Below are positions 21,841 to 41,411 of a stretch of 64,000 nucleotides of DNA, one piece after another. Every line of letters starts with the position of its first letter. Position 1 is the first letter of the stretch. Under the pieces are notes generated by a model, which was not told where the DNA came from, searched no databases, and saw nothing but the letters and a program-made list of their open reading frames with translations. Origin of the DNA: a phage; the sequence record PZ452612.1; one strand, written 5' to 3'. Made by a program: the position numbers and the translations under genes.

Positions 21841-22197
21841 TTAACCGCGGAGTTTATTGATCTCTTCATAATCAACCCAGGATTCTAGCCCAGATGGCAA
21901 ATCAGATTCAATTTCCCAAAGAAGCTCTTCAATGGCTTGCAGGCGATTATATTCTTCAACGGTAATGGTAACCATTGGTGCAACCGGTTCTGCCTTTTTA
22001 ACAATCATATCGTTCATCAGGATGTAAAGGTCATCACGAACGACAGTGTCGTTCCAACCCCATGATTTGGCTTCATAAGCTAATGATGAAGGGAGCACAT
22101 TTAAAACTTCAATAATAGTTGGAGCATCAGGACCAAGTTCATTGGCACAAACTTCGTATACATCTTGGAAATCTTTAAGATTTAATGAATATGTCAT
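21841..22197 (-). CDS. Hypothetical acidic protein
   Basis: 118-aa ORF upstream of nrdC. Confidence 0.5.
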   Translation of the reverse strand: MTYSLNLKDFQDVYEVCANELGPDAPTIIEVLNVLPSSLAYEAKSWGWNDTVVRDDLYILMNDMIVKKAEPVAPMVTITVEEYNRLQAIEELLWEIESDLPSGLESWVDYEEINKLRG

Positions 22198-22457
22198 TTA
22201 AAATATTCTCGTAGTTGGTCAAAGCCACCGATCGAAGTTCCATCAGGAGCAAACACTTGAGGCATAGTCAATCCAACTTGTGATTCACGTCCAAGCTTAA
22301 CCAGAAGCTCAGCAATTTTCTCATCATCAAAAACACCTTTTTCTGGCATAACGTTAATGAATTCGAATGGTTGTTTCTTAACAGTCAGCAATCGTTTCGC
22401 ATTATCACAATAAATGCATTTATGAATAGTAGAGTCATACCCGTACACTTTAAACAT
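22194..22457 (-). CDS. nrdC: Thioredoxin/glutaredoxin NrdC
   Basis: 87 aa from internal ATG; MFKVYGYDSTIHKCIYCDNAKRLL with CxxC motif. Confidence 0.9.
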   Translation of the reverse strand: MFKVYGYDSTIHKCIYCDNAKRLLTVKKQPFEFINVMPEKGVFDDEKIAELLVKLGRESQVGLTMPQVFAPDGTSIGGFDQLREYFK

Positions 22458-22863
22458 TATTTTTCCTTTCATCGATTAAATATGCAACGCCAAATACAAT
22501 ACATGTAATAAAACCTGTGATACAGATAGAAACCAACAACACTGTACCAAAGAACCAAATCAGGTTATCTTTAGTAGTTTGTTTTATATCCATCTCACGA
22601 ATTTCTATAGCTATAGTATCACCTTTATTCAGAAGCGTATAAAACGACGGTGATACATGCCTGTCAAAAACTCGTCCTTGCTCATCTTTATAGACTGCAA
22701 TAAATTCTAATTTAGAATATTTTCCTGTAGATTGACCTGAGATTAATTCCACTACCTCCACAGGAATTACTTTAGTTTCCATGTAAGTATTCTGACTGTT
22801 CCAAATGAATGGAATAATAGCAAAAACTAAAGCTGCGATAAAACAACGAAGGCTATATCTCAT
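22450..22863 (-). CDS. Membrane protein (N- and C-terminal TM segments)
   Basis: 137 aa; hydrophobic N-terminus CFIAALVFAIIPFIW and C-terminus FFGTVLLVSICITGFITCIVFGVAYLI. Confidence 0.5.
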   Translation of the reverse strand: MRYSLRCFIAALVFAIIPFIWNSQNTYMETKVIPVEVVELISGQSTGKYSKLEFIAVYKDEQGRVFDRHVSPSFYTLLNKGDTIAIEIREMDIKQTTKDNLIWFFGTVLLVSICITGFITCIVFGVAYLIDERKNNV

Positions 22864-23168
22864 TATAATGTTCTCTCAAATTTGTGGAAGCATTTACGGC
22901 ATTTCAATTTCAAGTTATCACTGGTCCAGTTAACCAGTTGGACTTGGATAGTTCCACATTCCGGACATGGATGTTTTGCTGCCGATTTGGCAGCATTTTC
23001 ACGTCGTTCAACCATTTTCATGATTTCGTTCCATGCTGGAGGAACGAACTCTTCTTCACCGTGGATTTTATCTCGCTGAACAAATTCAATCTTTGAACTA
23101 TCGTCAATAAACTTAACCAAGCGGTGATTAGTGTTCATATCAATATCCTCTAAAAGACGTAGTTTCAT
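22863..23168 (-). CDS. Zinc-ribbon protein
   Basis: 101 aa; CPECG...CRKC four-Cys motif. Confidence 0.5.
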   Translation of the reverse strand: MKLRLLEDIDMNTNHRLVKFIDDSSKIEFVQRDKIHGEEEFVPPAWNEIMKMVERRENAAKSAAKHPCPECGTIQVQLVNWTSDNLKLKCRKCFHKFERTL

Positions 23169-24112
23169 TATAACACCTCAATGGCATTTCGTAAACCATC
23201 CGCTTTCGCATTCAGAGCTTTTAACGATTTAGTCTGTTCTTTAATCTGGGCTTCGACTTCTTTCAGACGAGATTTGAGATATTCGCGTTCTTCGGCCATG
23301 ATATCGACCTTTTCTGCTTTAGGTTCTTTAATAGGCTTAAACACATTAGGGTTCTTCAGTTTAATTTTAATTCGAGAACTGAATAACATTGAACCGTTAT
23401 CTTCGGTTTCGTCGAACATTTCAACAACATCCATAGTCTGTAACATCATGCGAAGTTTATAAGACAGAGAACGAATGGTTTTGTTGCGCTTATTAATTTC
23501 TTCGGCTTTCATGGTACCGAGATTACGTGAGTAATAATAAGGAACCTGGATATCAATTGATAACGATGCGTTACCATTACCAGTTGGTTTGAATACTGCA
23601 GTAACCCAATCTTTAACATGAACTTTATTTGTACGACCATCGCCGCCTGTGAATAATTTACGTGAATGTTTAAAAAGCATATTCACTTGGTTATTGAATT
23701 CACAAGCAAATTTATCAGCAAATTTAGTTTCAGGAATGGTGGAGAACCAATCAGCTAAATGAGTCTTTTTAACATCATTAACAATAGTGAATTCAACCAA
23801 ATCGGTTTTAGATGTCACAGATTTAATAAAGCTCGGTTTCATAAAGTTTTTAATGTTATCACGAGCCACAGTAGAAGATAATAAACGAGAACGTTTGAAC
23901 CATTGAAGCAACGTCCCTAATGAATGAGAATATGCATTTTGAGTATCTTTACAGATATGATTTTCTTGGCCTGTGTATGTACCAAAATCGCGAAGAATAC
24001 CACTTACTACATCTCGGTGTGGAACATCAAATCCTAATGAACCAGAAGCACGTTGGGCATGAACGTTAGCGATAAGACCTGCAAAGTATTCAATGTAATG
24101 TGAACGTGTCAT
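23168..24112 (-). CDS. Hypothetical protein with C-terminal coiled coil
   Basis: 314 aa; C-terminal ~60 aa heptad-like (EEREYLKSRLKEVEAQIKEQTKSLKALNAKADGLRNAIEVL); own promoter. Confidence 0.5.
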   Translation of the reverse strand: MTRSHYIEYFAGLIANVHAQRASGSLGFDVPHRDVVSGILRDFGTYTGQENHICKDTQNAYSHSLGTLLQWFKRSRLLSSTVARDNIKNFMKPSFIKSVTSKTDLVEFTIVNDVKKTHLADWFSTIPETKFADKFACEFNNQVNMLFKHSRKLFTGGDGRTNKVHVKDWVTAVFKPTGNGNASLSIDIQVPYYYSRNLGTMKAEEINKRNKTIRSLSYKLRMMLQTMDVVEMFDETEDNGSMLFSSRIKIKLKNPNVFKPIKEPKAEKVDIMAEEREYLKSRLKEVEAQIKEQTKSLKALNAKADGLRNAIEVL

Positions 24113-24140
24113 AATATTTTCCTCTCGTTAAGATAGATTC

Positions 24141-24170
24141 ATTATACTCCAACCATCCTTGGTTGTAAAC
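24141..24170 (-). promoter_or_regulatory. Early promoter GTTTAC/TATAAT with palindromic spacer CAACCAAGGATGGTTG
   Basis: Minus strand GTTTACAACCAAGGATGGTTGGAGTATAAT; 27-nt core identical to copy at 25161..25187. Confidence 0.55.
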
Positions 24171-24174
24171 TATT

Positions 24175-25134
24175 TTATGATTTTAACGCATTCATTGCGT
24201 TAAAAAGTTTAGAATACTGCAACTGGAGATTCGTTACAACACTTTGAGCATCACGAAGCTTAGCTTGTGCTTTGTCAAGTTCAACAGACAGTTGGTCCAT
24301 AGTGGCCTTGATTTGATTGTAATGGTAATCTTCGGCCGGAAGAAGGTCATTAGAAACATTTAGTTTTACTGCAGACAGTTTGCACACATTTGGCAAACCT
24401 TTAAACATTGATTTACCCGAAGTAGAATAAGCACTTAGGACTTCGGCCTGTTCAATTGGGGTCCCAGTAAGCGATGCTTCAAACAATGCATTTTCCTTTT
24501 TAAGATTTTGATAATATTCGGAGTCTTTGTGCCACCATGGCGCAGGAACCTTTTTACCAATAGATACACGAGCCTGGATAGCGATATGGCCCTTATTCTT
24601 GATAAGGTCGATAATATTAAGCTCACGAGAATAAATCGCTTTAATCTGGTGGATATTATCACCTAAAACTTCCAACGCTTGGTGGAATACACGAGCGACA
24701 TTATCATTCTTAGGTTTATACGTAAGAGTGAACTCATTCTCACTGATAACCATGATTTCCAACTTATCGTAAGTATATTTCAAATGTTTCATGTTAATTG
24801 CTTGAGGACGAATACGAGAAGCAATGGCCATCAGATTGTTAAGGTTATTCCGGAACTGCTTAGCGAAATATTGTCCTTCACCGCCAATACAAAAATTACG
24901 AAGTTTCTGTTTGGCCAATAAACGGCTGAACTCACCATTTTTAATGAACTCTTTAACGGGTGTGTTAGTAACGCATTCAAATTGAGTAAACTTACGAGAA
25001 GTAATCCCATAATATGAACAGATTTCCTCAATCTCTTCAGGAGTCTTTACAGGCATACGGATAGGATTAGGTCCTGGAGTATATGCGTTCGAGGTAAATT
25101 CTTTGATAAGTTCTCTACGTGTAATAAAAGCCAT
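24175..25134 (-). CDS. Hypothetical protein with C-terminal coiled coil
   Basis: 319 aa; coiled-coil-like C-terminus (MDQLSVELDKAQAKLRDAQSVVTNLQLQYSKLFNAMNALKS). Confidence 0.5.
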   Translation of the reverse strand: MAFITRRELIKEFTSNAYTPGPNPIRMPVKTPEEIEEICSYYGITSRKFTQFECVTNTPVKEFIKNGEFSRLLAKQKLRNFCIGGEGQYFAKQFRNNLNNLMAIASRIRPQAINMKHLKYTYDKLEIMVISENEFTLTYKPKNDNVARVFHQALEVLGDNIHQIKAIYSRELNIIDLIKNKGHIAIQARVSIGKKVPAPWWHKDSEYYQNLKKENALFEASLTGTPIEQAEVLSAYSTSGKSMFKGLPNVCKLSAVKLNVSNDLLPAEDYHYNQIKATMDQLSVELDKAQAKLRDAQSVVTNLQLQYSKLFNAMNALKS

Positions 25135-25160
25135 TTTATATTCCTCATGTTGAAAAATTT

Positions 25161-25190
25161 ATTATACTCCAACCATCCTTGGTTGTACAT
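25161..25190 (-). promoter_or_regulatory. Early promoter, second copy of the palindrome-containing 27-nt element
   Basis: Identical 27-mer attatactccaaccatccttggttgta (plus strand) as at 24141..24167. Confidence 0.55.
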
Positions 25191-26185
25191 CATTCCTTAA
25201 GAAGTTTTACTACCTGAATAAGATTAGCTCGTTCTGTTTTATTTTTACCGTTTAAGCCTGCTAATCGTGAGATTTCATCGTCAGTCTGTTGAATAGTTAC
25301 ATTAAGTTCGTTAATCAAAGCTTCAAAGTATTTGATTTGCTCAGCATGTTTTGATTCAAATTTCTGAACCGGAATAACGTCTTGGTTCAGTTCATCAATA
25401 AGGTCTTTAAGAGCATCTTCTTGGTTGATATCATATTCAACTTCTTTTATTTCTTCAACGAGCTCGTCTTTATATCTAACGTCTTTTAGTCCTGGAGCTG
25501 GTCCTGAAATCTCTTCTTTAAGAGTACAAACATACCCAATACGGTATCCAACGCCGTCTCGCTTGATATCAACTTCGTCGATAAATCCACAATGTTTAAG
25601 TCCAGAGCCGATTATGTCAAAATATCCTTGACGTCGTCCTTCAAACGTTACACGAACTACTAAGACGGTTTTGCCACCGACCTTTTGAAGCTCACATTTA
25701 TAAAAGTTTGTTGAACCTGAATAACATGGATGAGTTTTAAAGTTCATCTGACGATCTAGGCCCATTTGTAAACGTGCTGTTACGGCCATAAAACGTGTTT
25801 GGTTCTCGTTAAGATGAGCAACAATCCATTTCAAAGGCATTTTACCCTGTTCACGGCCGAACAAATCAGTACGTCCTAGATTACGCAGGATGTTGTTAGA
25901 GTTAATCATCGACAGAACGTTAAGTTTATTCAGCGCGCTGAAGATTCCATCAGCCATTGATTTTCCATAACCTTTACACGCTTTAATAAGTGCTCGCGGC
26001 AGATTAGTATAGATTTCAGACGGCATATGAAAATCAAATTTACTAGTCAGTAATTGATGAACTTGGATAGCAATTTGCTCATAATTAAGTGCTCTGCGAT
26101 CGTTATGGTCTTTAAACCATACTTTAATCTGTGAAGCACATAAACCGTTAATTTCATGTTTTACCGCATCAGATGTAATGCTCAT
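25190..26185 (-). CDS. Hypothetical protein with acidic coiled-coil C-terminus
   Basis: 331 aa; upstream element resembles a MotA-box (CGCTTTA) plus TATAAT middle promoter. Confidence 0.5.
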   Translation of the reverse strand: MSITSDAVKHEINGLCASQIKVWFKDHNDRRALNYEQIAIQVHQLLTSKFDFHMPSEIYTNLPRALIKACKGYGKSMADGIFSALNKLNVLSMINSNNILRNLGRTDLFGREQGKMPLKWIVAHLNENQTRFMAVTARLQMGLDRQMNFKTHPCYSGSTNFYKCELQKVGGKTVLVVRVTFEGRRQGYFDIIGSGLKHCGFIDEVDIKRDGVGYRIGYVCTLKEEISGPAPGLKDVRYKDELVEEIKEVEYDINQEDALKDLIDELNQDVIPVQKFESKHAEQIKYFEALINELNVTIQQTDDEISRLAGLNGKNKTERANLIQVVKLLKE

Positions 26186-26247
26186 AACTATTTCCTCGGA
26201 TTGAATTGGAACTCAAAACCATTATAACCCGTCCTTGGGTAAAGCGT

Positions 26248-26775
26248 TTATGCGTGAACCGACTTTAAACGTTCTTCAAATTTCCGAAGAGTACTAATAC
26301 GTTCTGCTTTCTGTTTTGTATAGTTTGCAATACGTTCTGAAGTGAGAGCGTATCGTTCGTTTACTGTTTCTTTCATGAAGTCAGGGATTTCACGAGAAGC
26401 TTTAATTTCATCAAACTTATCGAGTACTGCCTGGTCTTCAGCAATTAAATTTTCGTACATCTCGATATCTTTCTTGATGAAGTCGATATCTTCCTGGGTT
26501 ACTTTGGATAAACGAGATGCTTTATCCTTTTTGTACTGCTCGTTAGTTTCACGAGACCAGAATAATGTACGTTTTTTGTTAGTGTTTTTGTAGACTTCCA
26601 CAATTCCAACTGAATCGATGATAACAATCCAATTCCAGCGAGATTTGAAAATCTGACCTCCGTCCACGGTAATCTCGTTACCATAAGCAATGTCATTAAA
26701 GAACTTACTTTGTGCTTCGGATTTAAATTTACCGTCGTTATAATTTACCAGGTTGAAAATATCTTTAGCGTTCAT
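26248..26775 (-). CDS. Hypothetical protein
   Basis: 175-aa ORF. Confidence 0.5.
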   Translation of the reverse strand: MNAKDIFNLVNYNDGKFKSEAQSKFFNDIAYGNEITVDGGQIFKSRWNWIVIIDSVGIVEVYKNTNKKRTLFWSRETNEQYKKDKASRLSKVTQEDIDFIKKDIEMYENLIAEDQAVLDKFDEIKASREIPDFMKETVNERYALTSERIANYTKQKAERISTLRKFEERLKSVHA

Positions 26776-26833
26776 GTTTTACCTCCAGTAGTTGATAGGT
26801 CTATAATAACATAACCATAGACCTTGTAAACAA

Positions 26834-27121
26834 CTAAAAGAAACTTTTTTCGGTATTTTTTCCACTGAACCAAACAGACTTCGGGATTTTTTGTAATTTT
26901 TCAGATTTAAGTTTCTCTTCCTGTTCTTTCTTATATACACCCTTGTCGTACTGGAGCATCTCTATGACATTCTTTTGCAAACGATCTAAGGTAATTAAGG
27001 CTTTAGTTTTTCCTTTCAAGGAAGAGTCCTGGCGAACCTCCTCGCTATATTGCATTGTAGAACTAACCATACGATGAGCATAGAGTTCGACTGCGGCTTT
27101 AATTTTTTGCATAAAATCCAT
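26834..27121 (-). CDS. Hypothetical protein
   Basis: 95-aa ORF. Confidence 0.45.
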   Translation of the reverse strand: MDFMQKIKAAVELYAHRMVSSTMQYSEEVRQDSSLKGKTKALITLDRLQKNVIEMLQYDKGVYKKEQEEKLKSEKLQKIPKSVWFSGKNTEKSFF

Positions 27122-27259
27122 AACATATCCTCTTTGATTTGTACATCATTATTTTTAAATATTTCTATGCCCTCAGTAGGTTCCTGGTGTCCTTCTTTGA
27201 GGTAAGCCATATGATTATTCATCTTTATGGCTTTTGTTACCTCAGAACTTCCTATAAGC

Positions 27260-28261
27260 TTATTTCAGTAAAGTAACTTCCGAGATTTCTTCCCAACCAT
27301 CTTTATCAGTTGAAATAAAATCTGCTACATAAAGAGCCGTACGTAATGATACATTGCGAAGACGAGATACGTTAGCCTTCATCCAGGACAATGCTTTATA
27401 CGTTTCTGCATCCGTCAGACCACGTTTCTGCATCATGTCAGTAGATAATATTACATCTTCAACTCGAACCATAATCTCTTCATTAGAGTGTACTCCAAGG
27501 TCGAGATACACTGAACGAGATACTAAAGCTTGAAGGTGTGGAGCAAGTTTCGAACCCCGTTCTAACTCTTTATCGATATCAACGTTTGTAATGAAAACGA
27601 TAGTACCTTCAAACTCAAATTCTTTATCAATACCCTTATCCTCGAGATAAGATGACGCAGTGCTCCAACAAACTTTGCGTTTATCTCCGGTATCTAATGC
27701 TGCTTTAAGAAGGTTCAGGATGTCCATATCTGAGAATACGTCAACGTCATCGATTAAGAGAACGCTGTCTTCATCACGGTTGAGCCAAAGTTGTTCGTAA
27801 AGGCCAATACCAGAGATTTTACCATTAATGCTTTTGTATTTGATGAAACCATTATCATTAGCATTATTAAGTGCTTTATCCAGAGAATACGTCTTACCAA
27901 TACCAGCTGCACCTGAAATAATGAGTGAACGAATTTTGCCATCGATAATGCCATTCGTCATCATGTTCATTACTTTAAAGCGTTTGTTGATACGGGTTTT
28001 CATATCTTCAGTGCTTTCAACAACTGCAACTGGTGATGTCTCAACTCCTTCCATTACGATGTCTGATTTGAAGACCCATACTCCACGTTCAGAACCATCA
28101 ATCATAACGAAAATTTTACCATCACCTAAGTGGGAACATTCAGGATTAAGCTTTGCCGGGAACCAGGTCTTTGTGGCAACATAAGAACCAGAGATTTCGT
28201 TATTACGATAGATACCTTTTTTGATTTGAACGTTGAACATTTTATTCTCCAATTTACTCAT
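27260..28261 (-). CDS. P-loop NTPase (Walker A/B) of unknown function
   Basis: 333 aa; Walker A GAAGIGKTYS, Walker B VLLIDDVD. Confidence 0.6.
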   Translation of the reverse strand: MSKLENKMFNVQIKKGIYRNNEISGSYVATKTWFPAKLNPECSHLGDGKIFVMIDGSERGVWVFKSDIVMEGVETSPVAVVESTEDMKTRINKRFKVMNMMTNGIIDGKIRSLIISGAAGIGKTYSLDKALNNANDNGFIKYKSINGKISGIGLYEQLWLNRDEDSVLLIDDVDVFSDMDILNLLKAALDTGDKRKVCWSTASSYLEDKGIDKEFEFEGTIVFITNVDIDKELERGSKLAPHLQALVSRSVYLDLGVHSNEEIMVRVEDVILSTDMMQKRGLTDAETYKALSWMKANVSRLRNVSLRTALYVADFISTDKDGWEEISEVTLLK

Positions 28262-28337
28262 TTCGTTTCGATAGGTCTATAGTATCATATCCTAAAAGCA
28301 TGTACACTACTTTTTAAAAATATTTTAACCCCCTAAA

Positions 28338-28353
28338 GGGACCCGAAGGTCCC
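28338..28353 (-). terminator. UUCG-tetraloop hairpin downstream of the secreted-protein gene (minus strand)
   Basis: GGGACC-cgaa-GGTCCC perfect 6-bp stem; U-containing tail on minus strand. Confidence 0.45.
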
Positions 28354-28358
28354 CACAT

Positions 28359-28625
28359 TTACTTATCACACTTAGCAACATAATTAGGCATATCACAGAA
28401 TACAGAGCGAGTAACTACTCGACCCTTTGACCATGCTTCAGTTGCTTGTCCGGCCGTGCTATTAATATAGCTTGATTTAATGTTCTCAATACCCTGAGAA
28501 TGTGATGCATTTACCGAACCGTTAGAAGGCCCAGAAGACTGGTTACCACCAGCTCCTGCGCCCGTGGTAGCACCAACAGAGAATGCCATCATTACTGCGA
28601 ATAAACCAATTACTAATTTTTTCAT
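28359..28625 (-). CDS. Small secreted protein (signal peptide, Gly/Ser/Asn-rich, C-terminal Cys pair)
   Basis: 88 aa; MKKLVIGLFAVMMAFSVGA signal-like N-terminus; late promoter TATAAATA immediately upstream. Confidence 0.55.
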   Translation of the reverse strand: MKKLVIGLFAVMMAFSVGATTGAGAGGNQSSGPSNGSVNASHSQGIENIKSSYINSTAGQATEAWSKGRVVTRSVFCDMPNYVAKCDK

Positions 28626-28656
28626 ATTTACCTCAAGTTAATGGTTATTTATCTAT

Positions 28657-29646
28657 TTATTTATAGTAAGAATTATGATTTTCGAGATAGACTTGCTCAA
28701 GGAAGTCATCCCAGAAACTCATATCTACTTTTTGTTGCATACCGTTCTTAGCGGCTTGTTCTGACGCATGTTCAACTTGGTCAACGATATCTTCTAGGAA
28801 TTCTTGCACAGTTTTAAACGTATGTTTACCAAGCTTAACATCGAGAATAAATGGAGCATCCTGAAGTGGGTAAACCAGGTCGCCGGTTTTGTAAATTTCC
28901 AATAATTGAAGTCCACCACGACATGCATGACTCAATGCTTTCCAGTCAATACCTTCGTTAGCTTCTGCCTTACGAGCACGTTCGCCATAGTTCTCTTCCA
29001 GTTTAACCAGGATGGCATTGAACTCTTTATTGGTTAACGTATCTTGGAATTTACGGTCTAACAGATTATAGAATGTTTGCTTACCTGTTTTCTCGTTTTC
29101 GGTTTCAACCCATGAAGCAAATTCACCTACAGGCAGAACATTCTTCATATGTGATAAACGAATTACTGCACCATTATCAAAGTATTGTCCCCATTCATTA
29201 GAACGTTTAAGGGCTTGACGAAGAACAGCCAGTCGAGAACCCTTGACACCGTATTTAGAAGCTTGCTTACGGACATACCCTAAATAAGATTTCATGTTAG
29301 TGGTATAGAAACGAGACCTGTTATCTTGAATATACTTCCATACATCAGGCAAATCAGATTTAACTACTAGACTTTGTGGAGTGTGAAGCATATCTAATGC
29401 GACGGTTTCACCATCTGCAGCTAGTTTAAAGAAATATTTGAGACTATATAACTCATGGTCCACGTCGTCTTTTGTGTTCTTAGAAGATGTGTTATTAGTG
29501 TTCTTGCTCATGTGTTCTTTAACGTTACCGGTCAAGATATCACGAGCATGAGGGACATAAATTTCTTTAAAATCGACGTCAGATTCAGGAGTAGACGTTC
29601 CATAAAGGTGGCTACCAAAGTAGCCTTTCATAATTGTTTTCATCAT
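28657..29646 (-). CDS. Pol-beta-superfamily nucleotidyltransferase-fold protein
   Basis: 329 aa; N-terminal GSHLYGTSTPESDVDF fits the G[SG]x9-13Dx[DE] nucleotidyltransferase signature. Confidence 0.5.
   Translation of the reverse strand: MMKTIMKGYFGSHLYGTSTPESDVDFKEIYVPHARDILTGNVKEHMSKNTNNTSSKNTKDDVDHELYSLKYFFKLAADGETVALDMLHTPQSLVVKSDLPDVWKYIQDNRSRFYTTNMKSYLGYVRKQASKYGVKGSRLAVLRQALKRSNEWGQYFDNGAVIRLSHMKNVLPVGEFASWVETENEKTGKQTFYNLLDRKFQDTLTNKEFNAILVKLEENYGERARKAEANEGIDWKALSHACRGGLQLLEIYKTGDLVYPLQDAPFILDVKLGKHTFKTVQEFLEDIVDQVEHASEQAAKNGMQQKVDMSFWDDFLEQVYLENHNSYYK
28658..28665 (-). promoter_or_regulatory. T4-type late promoter TATAAATA (minus strand)
   Basis: Plus tatttata = minus TATAAATA, ~33 nt upstream of the ATG at 28625. 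Confidence 0.45.
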
Positions 29647-30963: not shown

Positions 30964-31002
30964 GGTAGGACTACTATAACATAGTCCTACCAAGATGTAA
31001 AC
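30964..31002 (-). promoter_or_regulatory. Early promoter GTTTAC...TATAGT embedded in palindrome GGTAGGACT/AGTCCTACC
   Basis: One of three copies of the core aggactactataacatag (others at 41046 and 41374). Confidence 0.5.
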
Positions 31003-32051: not shown

Positions 32052-32633
32052 TTATAACAACCCTGTCAAATCATTCCAATGCTTCCGGCATAATGACACG
32101 TATCTATCGGTATCACCAATTTCAATTTGACTGCCATCTGTAATTGGAAGTCCGTCTTCCGTGACTCTAGCTACCATTGTGGCCTTTTTACCGCAATGAC
32201 AGACACCTTTAAGTTCAACAAGCTTATCGGCAATAGCCATTAATGCTTGAGAACCTTCAAATAGATTACCTTTAAAATCTGTTCGTAGTCCATATGCCAT
32301 TACTGGCACATTGTATACGTCAACAATACGACTAAGTTGATACACCTTTTCAGTAGTTAAGAACTGAGCTTCGTCAACAAATACACAGTGAATATCCTTT
32401 TGTGCTGCAGCCCATTTATAGAATTCAAAGATATCCATGTCTTTTGTAATTATATTGGCATCCTGACGAATACCAATACGAGAGACTATTTCACCTTTTG
32501 AATCACGAGTATCAATAGCCGGTTTAAGAACTAATACACCCATGCCACGTTCTTTATAGTTATGTGCGGCAGTAAGTAATGAAGAAGACTTACCAGCGTT
32601 CATAGCGGCATATGTAAAAATTAAACTAGCCAT
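32052..32633 (-). CDS. tk: Thymidine kinase
   Basis: 193 aa; P-loop NAGKSS, zinc-ribbon cysteines, typical TK length. Confidence 0.95.
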   Translation of the reverse strand: MASLIFTYAAMNAGKSSSLLTAAHNYKERGMGVLVLKPAIDTRDSKGEIVSRIGIRQDANIITKDMDIFEFYKWAAAQKDIHCVFVDEAQFLTTEKVYQLSRIVDVYNVPVMAYGLRTDFKGNLFEGSQALMAIADKLVELKGVCHCGKKATMVARVTEDGLPITDGSQIEIGDTDRYVSLCRKHWNDLTGLL

Positions 32634-41045: not shown

Positions 41046-41083
41046 ATAGGACTACTATAACATAGTCCTATCATCATGTAAAC
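41046..41083 (-). promoter_or_regulatory. Early promoter GTTTAC...TATAGT within palindrome ATAGGACTA/TAGTCCTAT
   Basis: Repeat copy 2 of core aggactactataacatag. Confidence 0.5.
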
Positions 41084-41373: not shown

Positions 41374-41411
41374 ATAGGACTACTATAACATAGCCCTATC
41401 AAGATGTAAAC
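41374..41411 (-). promoter_or_regulatory. Early promoter, repeat copy 3 (one mismatch)
   Basis: ataggactactataacatagccctat plus gtaaac at 41406-41411. Confidence 0.5.

What the first reader, a model, noticed from the sequence alone, without database searches (positions are those of the whole stretch)
23168..26185. Three tandem ~315-330-aa genes with C-terminal coiled coils, each with its own promoter; two share an identical 27-bp palindrome-containing promoter element
The three proteins are unrelated in sequence but share architecture (a ~250-aa globular domain plus a ~50-60-aa coiled coil). They sit in the nrdC-tk hyperplastic region. The upstream elements at 24141-24167 and 25161-25187 are identical, and the 17-nt spacer contains the palindrome CAACCA-AGGA-TGGTTG, suggesting a shared regulator site or recombination-mediated module shuffling.
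Basis: seen in the sequence. Interest (0 to 1): 0.5.

Follow-up and report, generated by a model that had tools for sequence, protein, structure and literature searches.

The report
Repeated hairpin promoter flanks swappable phage gene
Three accessory early genes of an RB69-like phage each follow a copy of a dispersed early promoter with a small conserved hairpin, and recombination between the two identical copies has removed (or inserted) the middle gene, whose T4 relative blocks a bacterial defence, in 21 of 154 related phages.

Summary
The window is from a Mosigvirus (RB69-like). The three minus-strand genes are the orthologues of T4 nrdC.3 (23168-24112), nrdC.5 (24175-25134) and nrdC.6 (25190-26185). 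The 27-mers at 24141-24167 and 25161-25187 are identical. Each lies inside a sigma-70-type early promoter, with the palindrome in the -35/-10 spacer.

What tools added:
- The palindrome is a conserved hairpin. Across four T-even genera the stem covaries (four of six pairs compensatory) and the loop AAGGA is invariant.
- A third, degenerate copy precedes nrdC.6.
- The hairpin promoter is dispersed: 8 copies per Mosigvirus genome, all on the early strand.
- The exact product of recombination between the two 27-mers exists in 21 of 154 Mosigvirus records, which have nrdC.6 next to nrdC.3 and no nrdC.5. One phage carries the reciprocal-type junction.
- T4 NrdC.5 is a published inhibitor of the Dsr1 defence.
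- nrdC.3 and nrdC.5 families are probable distant paralogues, so "unrelated" is partly wrong.

This is a variant of the published PeSL "mobile regulatory cassettes". A dimeric-operator reading is not supported. What the hairpin itself does remains inferred.

The parts
23168..24112 (-). g1, orthologue of T4 nrdC.3 (314 aa). Family phrog_1435 / PF26897, which also holds T4 nrdC.4. Has a C-terminal heptad helix.
   Evidence: 58-60% identity to T4 NrdC.3. PHROG E 4e-101. PF26897 on all homologues. RB69 annotation names it nrdC.3. Heptad signal. AF2 helix 273-313.
24141..24169 (-). Hairpin early promoter, copy 1, upstream of g1. -35 TTTACA at 24164-24169; hairpin CAACCA-AGGA-TGGTTG at 24150-24165; GGAG at 24147-24150; -10 TATAAT at 24141-24146. 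The exact 27-nt repeat is 24141-24167.
   Evidence: The homologous position is annotated 'promoter' in phage NBG1. The RNA minimum-energy fold contains the hairpin.
24175..25134 (-). g2, orthologue of T4 nrdC.5 (319 aa), Pfam DUF7235 (PF23882). This is the cassette gene flanked by the two identical 27-mers. Its T4 homologue counteracts Dsr1.
   Evidence: Pfam E 7e-124. phrog_2351. 95% identity to RB69 nrdC.5. 25% identity to T4 NrdC.5. Function of T4 NrdC.5: PMC9391042. Absent from 21 Mosigvirus records.
25161..25189 (-). Hairpin early promoter, copy 2, upstream of g2. -35 TGTACA at 25184-25189, abutting the g3 stop codon; hairpin at 25170-25185; -10 TATAAT at 25161-25166. The exact 27-nt repeat is 25161-25187.
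25190..26185 (-). g3, orthologue of T4 nrdC.6 (331 aa). Family phrog_2257 / PF26899.
   Evidence: PHROG E 4e-127. PF26899. 33-37% identity to T4/T2 NrdC.6. RB69 annotation. AF2 model of low confidence.
26221..26243 (-). Degenerate copy 3 of the hairpin element, upstream of g3. TTTACC at 26238-26243; hairpin ACCC-AAGGAC-GGGT at 26227-26240; TATAAT at 26221-26226. The spacer is only 11 nt, so a functional -35 is doubtful.
   Evidence: Motif search gives 3 hits in the window against 0.03 expected. Comparison with the T4/VR7/Dhakavirus version TTTATACCAAGGATGGTATAAT, which carries an extended -10.

Best explanation
The region is a string of accessory early genes (nrdC.6, nrdC.5, nrdC.3) in the nrdC-tk hyperplastic region of an RB69-like phage. 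Each gene is packaged with a copy of a dispersed promoter cassette.

Shown:
- Each cassette is a sigma-70-type T-even early promoter. Its -35/-10 spacer holds a 4-7-bp hairpin with an invariant AAGGA(Y) loop.
- The stem is kept by compensatory changes across Mosigvirus, Tequatrovirus, Gaprivervirus and Dhakavirus.
- The same element precedes other early genes elsewhere in the genome.
- The two copies flanking nrdC.5 share 27 identical bases.
- The precise product of homologous recombination between them, with nrdC.5 gone, is what 21 of 154 sequenced Mosigviruses carry.

The element therefore works as a portable promoter and also as a portable patch of homology. That homology lets one gene cassette be lost, gained or duplicated without disturbing its neighbours. 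This is the PeSL model of Arbiol et al. 2010.

Inferred:
- The hairpin most likely acts at the RNA level. It is transcribed only in read-through transcripts from upstream promoters. It lies directly after the upstream stop codon, and in most copies GGAGUAUAAU follows it, a near match to the RegB/S1 cleavage site. It probably marks and stabilises the 3' end of the upstream cistron, or directs processing.
- The genes are probably host-range or counter-defence factors, because T4 NrdC.5 neutralises Dsr1.
For: - Identity and promoter matches.
- Motif enrichment in the window: 3 hits against 0.03 expected.
- Related elements at the same gene junctions in T4, T2, RB69, VR7, AnYang, EcWhh-1, LQ5, moha and Manna.
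- Covariation: 90.9% of cells paired. Four of six pairs have changes on both sides, and one pair shows all four Watson-Crick types. 0 of 500 shuffles reach the observed score, and slid controls give 18-42% paired.
- Genome-wide: 8 hairpins in Mosigvirus mar005p1 and 6 in Tequatrovirus BCH953P2, against about 1 in shuffles. All those in promoter context are on the early strand, just after a stop codon. They lie upstream of alc-like, motB-like and other early genes.
- Recombination product: the synthetic junction is matched at 100% coverage, in one piece, at 96-99% identity in 21 records. Gene order in p000v is nrdC.3 then nrdC.6. The junction alignment shows chimeric flanks.
- 133 records have g2, and 133 + 21 = 154.
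- Reciprocal-type junction in moha.
- T4 recombines at 6-10-bp microhomologies (PMC9391042).
- PeSL concept and circle formation: PMC2839356 and PMC4122927.
- RegB site consensus GGAGRAYARAA and the motB substrate GGAGUAUAAAA: PMC1702504.
- T4 NrdC.5 counteracts Dsr1.
Against: - No transcript data were available, so promoter activity and the RNA-level role of the hairpin are unproven.
- The hairpin is thermodynamically modest, about -7 kcal/mol, with z-scores near -1. No U-tract follows it, so it is not a classical intrinsic terminator, unlike the RB49/phi1 PeSL stem-loops.
- GGAG follows the stem in only some copies. It is absent from the T4 nrdC.5|nrdC.4 copy and from several dispersed copies.
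- Non-Watson-Crick cells do not clearly discriminate the strand. G.U on the sense strand occurs at outer pairs, but A.C occurs at the loop-closing pair.
- The direction of the event, deletion or insertion of nrdC.5, cannot be told from the junction.
- g2 is only 25% identical to T4 NrdC.5, so its target may differ.
Confidence: 0.8

Rival explanations
1. The palindrome is an operator. A dimeric host or phage DNA-binding protein binds the two half-sites and co-regulates the two genes.
For: - Perfect 6+6 palindrome, placed where a repressor would block RNA polymerase.
- The central CAAGGAYG is invariant in all copies.
- The mechanism of early-promoter shut-off in T4 is still unexplained (PMC3014915).
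Against: - The arms are not conserved. At one pair all four Watson-Crick combinations occur, and stems range from 4 to 7 bp.
- The invariant part (AAGGA) is itself not palindromic.
- The loop-closing base varies T/C in three independent contexts.
Confidence: 0.08
2. The repeats are passive leftovers of tandem duplication of one ancestral gene-plus-promoter unit. The three genes are diverged paralogues, and neither the hairpin nor the repeat has a function of its own.
For: - nrdC.3 and nrdC.4 are clear paralogues: 97% HHalign probability and the same PHROG.
- nrdC.3/4 against nrdC.5: 83-89% probability.
- Similar lengths, N-termini and C-terminal helices.
- Similar secondary-structure order in the two low-confidence models.
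Against: - The same hairpin promoter stands in front of unrelated early genes at five other places in the genome.
- Compensatory changes show purifying selection on pairing.
- nrdC.6 shows no detectable homology to the others.
- The 27-nt identity contrasts with protein identity too low for BLASTP to detect between g1 and g2, which implies recent conversion or recombination rather than ancient duplication.
Confidence: 0.1
3. The hairpin acts at the DNA level. It would be a small cruciform or single-strand hairpin that tunes promoter strength or supercoiling response, or a structure-specific target that stimulates recombination, as Arbiol et al. speculated for PeSL stems.
For: - Fixed position between -35 and -10 in every copy.
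- Recombination in RB49 was mapped inside a PeSL loop (PMC2839356).
- Crossovers here lie within the repeat.
Against: - Stems of 4-6 bp with 4-6-nt loops are poor cruciform formers.
- The spacer is not melted in open complexes (established knowledge).
- The crossover cannot be placed within the 27 identical bases.
- T4 recombines at any short homology, so no special structure is needed.
Confidence: 0.15

Closest known systems
PeSLs (promoter-early stem-loops), the 'mobile regulatory cassettes' of T4-type phages (Arbiol et al. 2010, PMC2839356; Comeau et al. 2014, PMC4122927)
   Same: - Repeated composite elements in hyperplastic regions, made of an early promoter plus a stem-loop, sitting between small accessory genes.
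- Recombination between neighbouring copies deletes, inserts or swaps single-gene cassettes.
- The 2014 paper shows PeSLs and degraded PeSLs in the 43-51 kb region of PST/T4, which includes the nrdC genes.
   Different: - In published PeSLs the stem-loop lies upstream of the -35 and acts as a terminator: GC-rich in RB49/phi1, AGNA-loop-TCNT in PST.
- Here the stem-loop lies inside the -35/-10 spacer, has a fixed AAGGA(Y) loop and covarying arms, and lacks a U-tract.
- Circle formation was not tested here.
T4 early promoters (UP/-35 GTTTAC/TGn/-10 class; Hinton 2010, PMC2988021)
   Same: -35 (G)TTTACA, 17-nt spacer, -10 TATAAT, location right after a stop codon on the early strand, and a TGn extended -10 in some copies (T4 nrdC.4 and nrdC.7 copies).
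   Different: The review mentions 'additional regions of consensus' but no spacer hairpin. Only about 6-8 promoters per genome carry it.
T4 NrdC.5, inhibitor of the Dsr1 sirtuin defence (Srikant, Guegler and Laub 2022, PMC9391042); Pfam DUF7235
   Same: g2 is the syntenic orthologue and a full-length member of DUF7235 (E 7e-124). Like T4 nrdC.5 it is a dispensable early gene that is lost by recombination at short repeats.
   Different: Only 25% identity to the tested T4 protein. No assay exists for the RB69-type protein. nrdC.3 and nrdC.6 have no known function.
RegB/S1 cleavage sites (GGAGRAYARAA; Durand et al. 2006, PMC1702504)
   Same: GGAGUAUAAU(A/G) directly after the stem matches the consensus at 9-10 of 11 positions. 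It also matches the motB minimal substrate GGAGUAUAAAA at 10 of 11.
   Different: The match arises from GGAG plus the -10 hexamer. It is absent in several copies, and cleavage at these sites is not documented in the text available to me.

Membership tests
PeSL (promoter-early stem-loop cassette) | Contains an early, sigma-70-type promoter | tested here: met
   11/12 and 10/12 consensus matches with a 17-nt spacer. This is a sequence match only, not transcript mapping.
PeSL (promoter-early stem-loop cassette) | Stem-loop adjacent to and upstream of the promoter, acting as a terminator of upstream transcription | tested here: not met
   The stem-loop lies between -35 and -10. No U-tract follows it, and neither the palindrome nor its flank appears among the 11 terminator-like sites that the scan listed. 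Terminator activity itself was not testable.
PeSL (promoter-early stem-loop cassette) | Repeated in the genome, preferentially in hyperplastic regions next to variable accessory genes | tested here: met
   8 copies in a Mosigvirus genome and 6 in a Tequatrovirus genome, against about 1 expected. Three lie in the nrdC-tk region.
PeSL (promoter-early stem-loop cassette) | Recombination between copies produces indels or replacements of the intervening gene | tested here: met
   The exact crossover junction is present in 21 of 154 genomes. A reciprocal-type junction is present in moha.
PeSL (promoter-early stem-loop cassette) | Formation of mini-circles during infection | not testable with these tools
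   Needs inverse PCR on infected cells or virions.
Pfam DUF7235 / NrdC.5 (anti-Dsr1) family, for g2 | Full-length match above the Pfam gathering score | tested here: met
   413.7 bits against a cut-off of 30, covering residues 15-318.
Pfam DUF7235 / NrdC.5 (anti-Dsr1) family, for g2 | Restores infection of dsr1-carrying hosts | not testable with these tools
   Shown only for T4 NrdC.5.
Coiled-coil C-terminal domain | Heptad periodicity of hydrophobic residues in a Pro-free helix of at least 28 residues | tested here: met
   g1 and g2: 0 of 300 shuffles reach the score. g3: weaker, 7% of shuffles. g1 AF2 helix 273-313. Oligomeric state was not tested.
Intrinsic (Rho-independent) terminator | GC-rich stem followed by a run of U | tested here: not met
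   The stem is followed by GGAGUAUAAU. The hairpin is not among the terminator-like sites listed by the scan.
RegB/S1 cleavage site | Single-stranded GGAG followed by an A-rich heptamer (GGAGRAYARAA) | tested here: inconclusive
   9-10 of 11 positions match in copies 1 and 2 and in T4 nrdC.3, VR7 and Dhakavirus copies. The match is absent in others. Cleavage was not tested.
Palindromic operator for a dimeric regulator | Two conserved, symmetric half-sites | tested here: not met
   The arms covary through four pair types, and only the asymmetric loop is conserved.
Any Rfam RNA family | Match to a curated covariance model | tested here: not met
   No match at E <= 1 in 22000-29000.

The most novel reading that the evidence does not exclude
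The spacer hairpin with its invariant AAGGA(Y) loop may define a distinct, functionally specialised subclass of T-even early promoters. It would be recognised, as RNA in read-through transcripts or as DNA, by a specific host or phage factor. Candidates are the 30S subunit/S1 through the Shine-Dalgarno-like loop, feeding RegB; or a factor involved in the still unexplained shut-off of early promoters. The 6-8 genes behind it, several of them takeover or counter-defence genes, would then be co-regulated as a set.
Probability: 0.15. Interest if true: 0.7.

Novelty: new variant of a known kind. Interest (0 to 1): 0.45.

Why it matters
This gives a clean natural example of how T-even phages gain and lose single counter-defence genes. 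A 27-bp promoter repeat brackets the homologue of the only known anti-Dsr1 gene, and one in seven sequenced relatives carries exactly the recombined, gene-less version. That links the PeSL model of modular shuffling to the phage-host arms race. It also predicts which natural Mosigviruses should be sensitive to Dsr1-type defences. The covarying hairpin with a fixed loop inside the promoter spacer is a small, testable regulatory signal, and I found no description of it in the papers I could read.

Tried and rejected
1. AlphaFold2 on g3 (4 sequences) and g1 (9 sequences) gave mean pLDDT 46 and 50. Foldseek against BFVD returned only each protein's own family, at TM-scores 0.2-0.3. No fold assignment is possible, and the third fold search was not used.\n2. 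An HMMER profile of the g1 family against 1.84 billion representatives found only 5 proteins, all of the same family. This gives no link to g2 or g3 and shows how narrow the family is.\n3. The search for related loci in IMG/VR with the g2 family returned only 4 loci.\n4. Only five of the loci it fetched were T4-like.\n5. PDB sequence search, NCBIfam and Rfam all returned nothing.\n6. Intrinsic-terminator reading: rejected, because there is no U-tract.\n7. 'Fragments of a single gene': rejected. All three are full-length members of separate families conserved across genera.\n8. Search for the moha-type reciprocal junction in other phages: found only in moha itself.\n9. I could not establish from the text of Durand et al. 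2006 whether the T4 nrdC.3 upstream GGAG is among the RegB-cleaved sites, because Figure 3A is not held.
Full report
**Identity of the window and the genes**

The 3.4-kb region is 100% identical to E. coli O157 typing phages 3, 6 and 13 and 97% identical to many RB69-like phages. RB69 and its relatives are classified in Mosigvirus.

All genes here are on the minus strand.
- nrdC (glutaredoxin) is at 22194-22472 and tk at 32052-32633, so the nrdC-tk location is right.
- g1 (23168-24112) is 58-60% identical to T4 NrdC.3.
- g2 (24175-25134) is a full-length member of Pfam DUF7235 with T4 NrdC.5 (E 7e-124).
- g3 (25190-26185) falls in phrog_2257 with T4 NrdC.6.
- The RB69 record names the three genes nrdC.6, nrdC.5 and nrdC.3.

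These phages lack nrdC.4, and their nrdC.7 sits between nrdC.2 and nrdC. The genes are therefore known, conserved T-even ORFs, not gene fragments.

**The repeat**

Positions 24141-24167 and 25161-25187 are identical. Similarity extends to 43 nt at 86%. On the coding strand the two copies read TTTACA-ACCAAGGATGGTTGGAG-TATAAT and TGTACA-ACCAAGGATGGTTGGAG-TATAAT. These match the promoter consensus at 11/12 and 10/12 with a 17-nt spacer.

The palindrome CAACCA-AGGA-TGGTTG occurs only at these two places in the window. A looser motif, CAAGGAYG followed within 14 nt by TATAAT, hits three times against 0.03 expected. The third hit, 26221-26237, lies upstream of g3. That copy has only 11 nt between TTTACC and TATAAT, so g3 probably depends mainly on upstream promoters.

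**The palindrome is a conserved hairpin**

The same gene junctions in T4, T2, RB69, VR7 (Gaprivervirus), AnYang, EcWhh-1 and LQ5 (Dhakavirus), moha, Manna and several metagenomic contigs all carry an element with the core C-AAGGA-Y-G. Its flanking arms differ but stay complementary: CAACC/GGTTG, ACCC/GGGT, CCAC/GTGG, AGCC/GGCT, TATACC/GGTATA, CTTCC/GGAGG, CATCC/GGATG and TATC/GATA.

I counted pairs on the 11 distinct variants, which were chosen without regard to pairing.
- 90.9% of cells pair.
- Four of six pairs show changes on both sides, and one pair shows AU, UA, CG and GC.
- No shuffle of 500 reaches the observed score.
- Sliding the partner by 1-3 columns drops pairing to 18-42%.

A dimeric operator would keep its half-sites. 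Here only the asymmetric loop is fixed. The RNA minimum-energy folds contain the hairpin in most contexts, but it is weak (about -7 kcal/mol, z near -1) and has no U-tract. No Rfam family matches.

**The element is dispersed**

In a complete Mosigvirus genome the octamer CAAGGAYG occurs 13 times on the early strand, and 8 of these have at least 3 further complementary pairs. It occurs 5 times on the other strand, and none has a stem. Shuffles give about 1 hairpin.

Five copies lie outside the nrdC cluster. Each sits between a -35-like and a -10-like hexamer, directly after a stop codon. They lie upstream of alc-like, motB-like and other early genes. A Tequatrovirus genome has 6 copies. This is a subclass of T-even early promoters, not something private to these three genes.

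**Recombination at the repeat**

I built the sequence that a crossover between the two 27-mers would leave: the g1 start and leader, the 27-mer, and the g3 end (358 nt).
- Megablast finds it as one piece, at 100% coverage and 96-99% identity, in 21 phage records. The other 133 of the 154 matching records split it.
- g2 is found in 133 records, so the numbers add up.
- Phage p000v has nrdC.3 directly next to nrdC.6. Its junction is the left flank of the nrdC.6|nrdC.5 junction, then the 27-mer, then the right flank of the nrdC.5|nrdC.3 junction.
- Phage moha carries the other kind of junction upstream of nrdC.5: the last ~25 nt of nrdC.5, the core, then the nrdC.5 leader. This follows an inserted small membrane ORF and is unique to moha.

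T4 is known to recombine at 6-10-bp microhomologies, and it lost nrdC.5 that way in the laboratory. Whether nature deleted or inserted the cassette cannot be told from the junction.

**Comparison with what is known**

Arbiol et al. 2010 and Comeau et al. 2014 described PeSLs. These are repeated early-promoter-plus-stem-loop cassettes in the hyperplastic regions of T4-type phages, and they mediate exactly this kind of shuffling. The 2014 paper includes the 43-51 kb region of PST/T4. In those elements the stem-loop lies upstream of the -35 and terminates transcription. Here it lies inside the spacer and is not terminator-like. I therefore file this as a variant, not a plain member.

**Likely role of the hairpin (inference)**

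Transcripts started at the embedded promoter lack the hairpin; only read-through transcripts contain it. It sits 0-15 nt after the upstream stop codon. In most copies GGAGUAUAAU follows it. That is close to the RegB/S1 consensus GGAGRAYARAA and to the motB substrate GGAGUAUAAAA. The loop AAGGA is also complementary to the anti-Shine-Dalgarno sequence (established knowledge).

A role in 3'-end protection or processing of polycistronic early RNA is my preferred reading. GGAG is missing from several copies, however, and no transcript data were available.

**The proteins**

- T4 NrdC.5 restores infection of cells carrying the sirtuin defence Dsr1 (Srikant et al. 2022). g2 is its orthologue but only 25% identical, while neighbouring nrdC.8 is 83% identical. 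That pattern fits fast-evolving counter-defence genes.
- Paralogy: nrdC.3 and nrdC.4 are paralogues (97% HHalign probability). nrdC.3/4 against nrdC.5 gives 83-89% probability over 100-144 collinear columns. nrdC.6 shows no link.
- Coiled coil: heptad periodicity supports a C-terminal coiled coil in g1 and g2, and less so in g3.
- Family breadth: the g1 family is tiny, with 5 representatives among 1.84 billion proteins.
- Structure: the predictions were of low confidence and the fold searches uninformative. There are no PDB relatives.

**Verdict**

It belongs to a published kind of element, but in a new form, and it now has direct comparative evidence involving a counter-defence gene family.

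Noticed in passing
L001 8005-8120 (T4 NC_000866 52004-52119), minus strand: The T4 reference nrdC.6 (275 aa) is frameshifted near its 3' end. The coiled-coil tail (...DDEIFRLSGLSSKAKSEREKLIKIVDLLKS*) continues in another frame. T2 and other Tequatroviruses encode an intact 295-296-aa protein.
   Followed up: partly
L130 4203-5240 (Salmonella phage Manna): A chimeric gene joins NrdC.6 residues 1-258 to NrdC.4 residues 251-333. nrdC.5 and most of nrdC.4 are deleted. This recombinant swaps the C-terminal helical module between two of these proteins.
   Followed up: partly
L006 5403-5526 (RB69 NC_004928): The RB69 reference nrdC.5 is annotated as 300 aa followed by a 122-nt 'gap'. The gap holds the normal 3' end of the gene, and the tblastn match needs 3 pieces. 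The reference appears frameshifted and would lose the coiled-coil tail.
   Followed up: partly
window 30973-31001, 41054-41082, 41382-41410 (minus strand); also 26794-26850 and 28270-28326: A second family of early-promoter-like sites carries a different embedded inverted repeat, for example GGTAGGACTA...TAGTCCTACC. Its 10-bp arms enclose the -10 hexamer (TATAGT). This suggests that promoter-embedded hairpins are a general theme in this genome.
   Followed up: no
window 22450-22863 (minus strand): The nrdC.7-type membrane protein lies between nrdC.2 and nrdC in Mosigviruses. In T4 it lies between nrdC.8 and nrdC.6, directly behind the hairpin promoter. This is a relocation within the hyperplastic region.
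   Followed up: partly
L132 4199-4399 (phage moha); homologues at L007 4233-4448 and L008 4230-4433: A small (66-71 aa) predicted membrane ORF lies between nrdC.6 and nrdC.5 in moha, VR7 and Dhakaviruses. It is absent from the window phage and RB69. Its loss places the g3 stop codon directly against the -35 (TGA-TGTACA).
   Followed up: partly
L139 (Mosigvirus mar005p1 record positions about 167964 and 168523), outside the window: One distant copy of the hairpin promoter is identical over about 43 nt, including the leader CTTTCTATCTTAA, to the RB69 nrdC.5|nrdC.3 copy. It stands upstream of a phrog_2333 gene (weaker phrog_1671, MotB-like match) next to the motB-like gene. This points to copy-and-paste or gene conversion between loci about 126 kb apart.
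   Followed up: partly
window 27260-28261 and 28657-29646 (minus strand): The neighbouring genes are nrdC.10, with weak P-loop/AAA matches, and nrdC.11, an RlaP-type nucleotidyltransferase (PF10127). Like the three genes studied, they are accessory early genes with no function assigned by these searches (nrdC.10 only sub-threshold AAA matches; nrdC.11 only a family assignment).
   Followed up: no
fold search of g3 model: Weak Foldseek hits (E 2e-4 to 1e-2, TM about 0.2) to 300-350-aa uncharacterised proteins of Citrobacter phage Merlin, Serratia phage CBH8 and Acinetobacter phage Acj61. They might be distant NrdC.6-like proteins in other T4-like genera. The model is too poor to tell.
   Followed up: no
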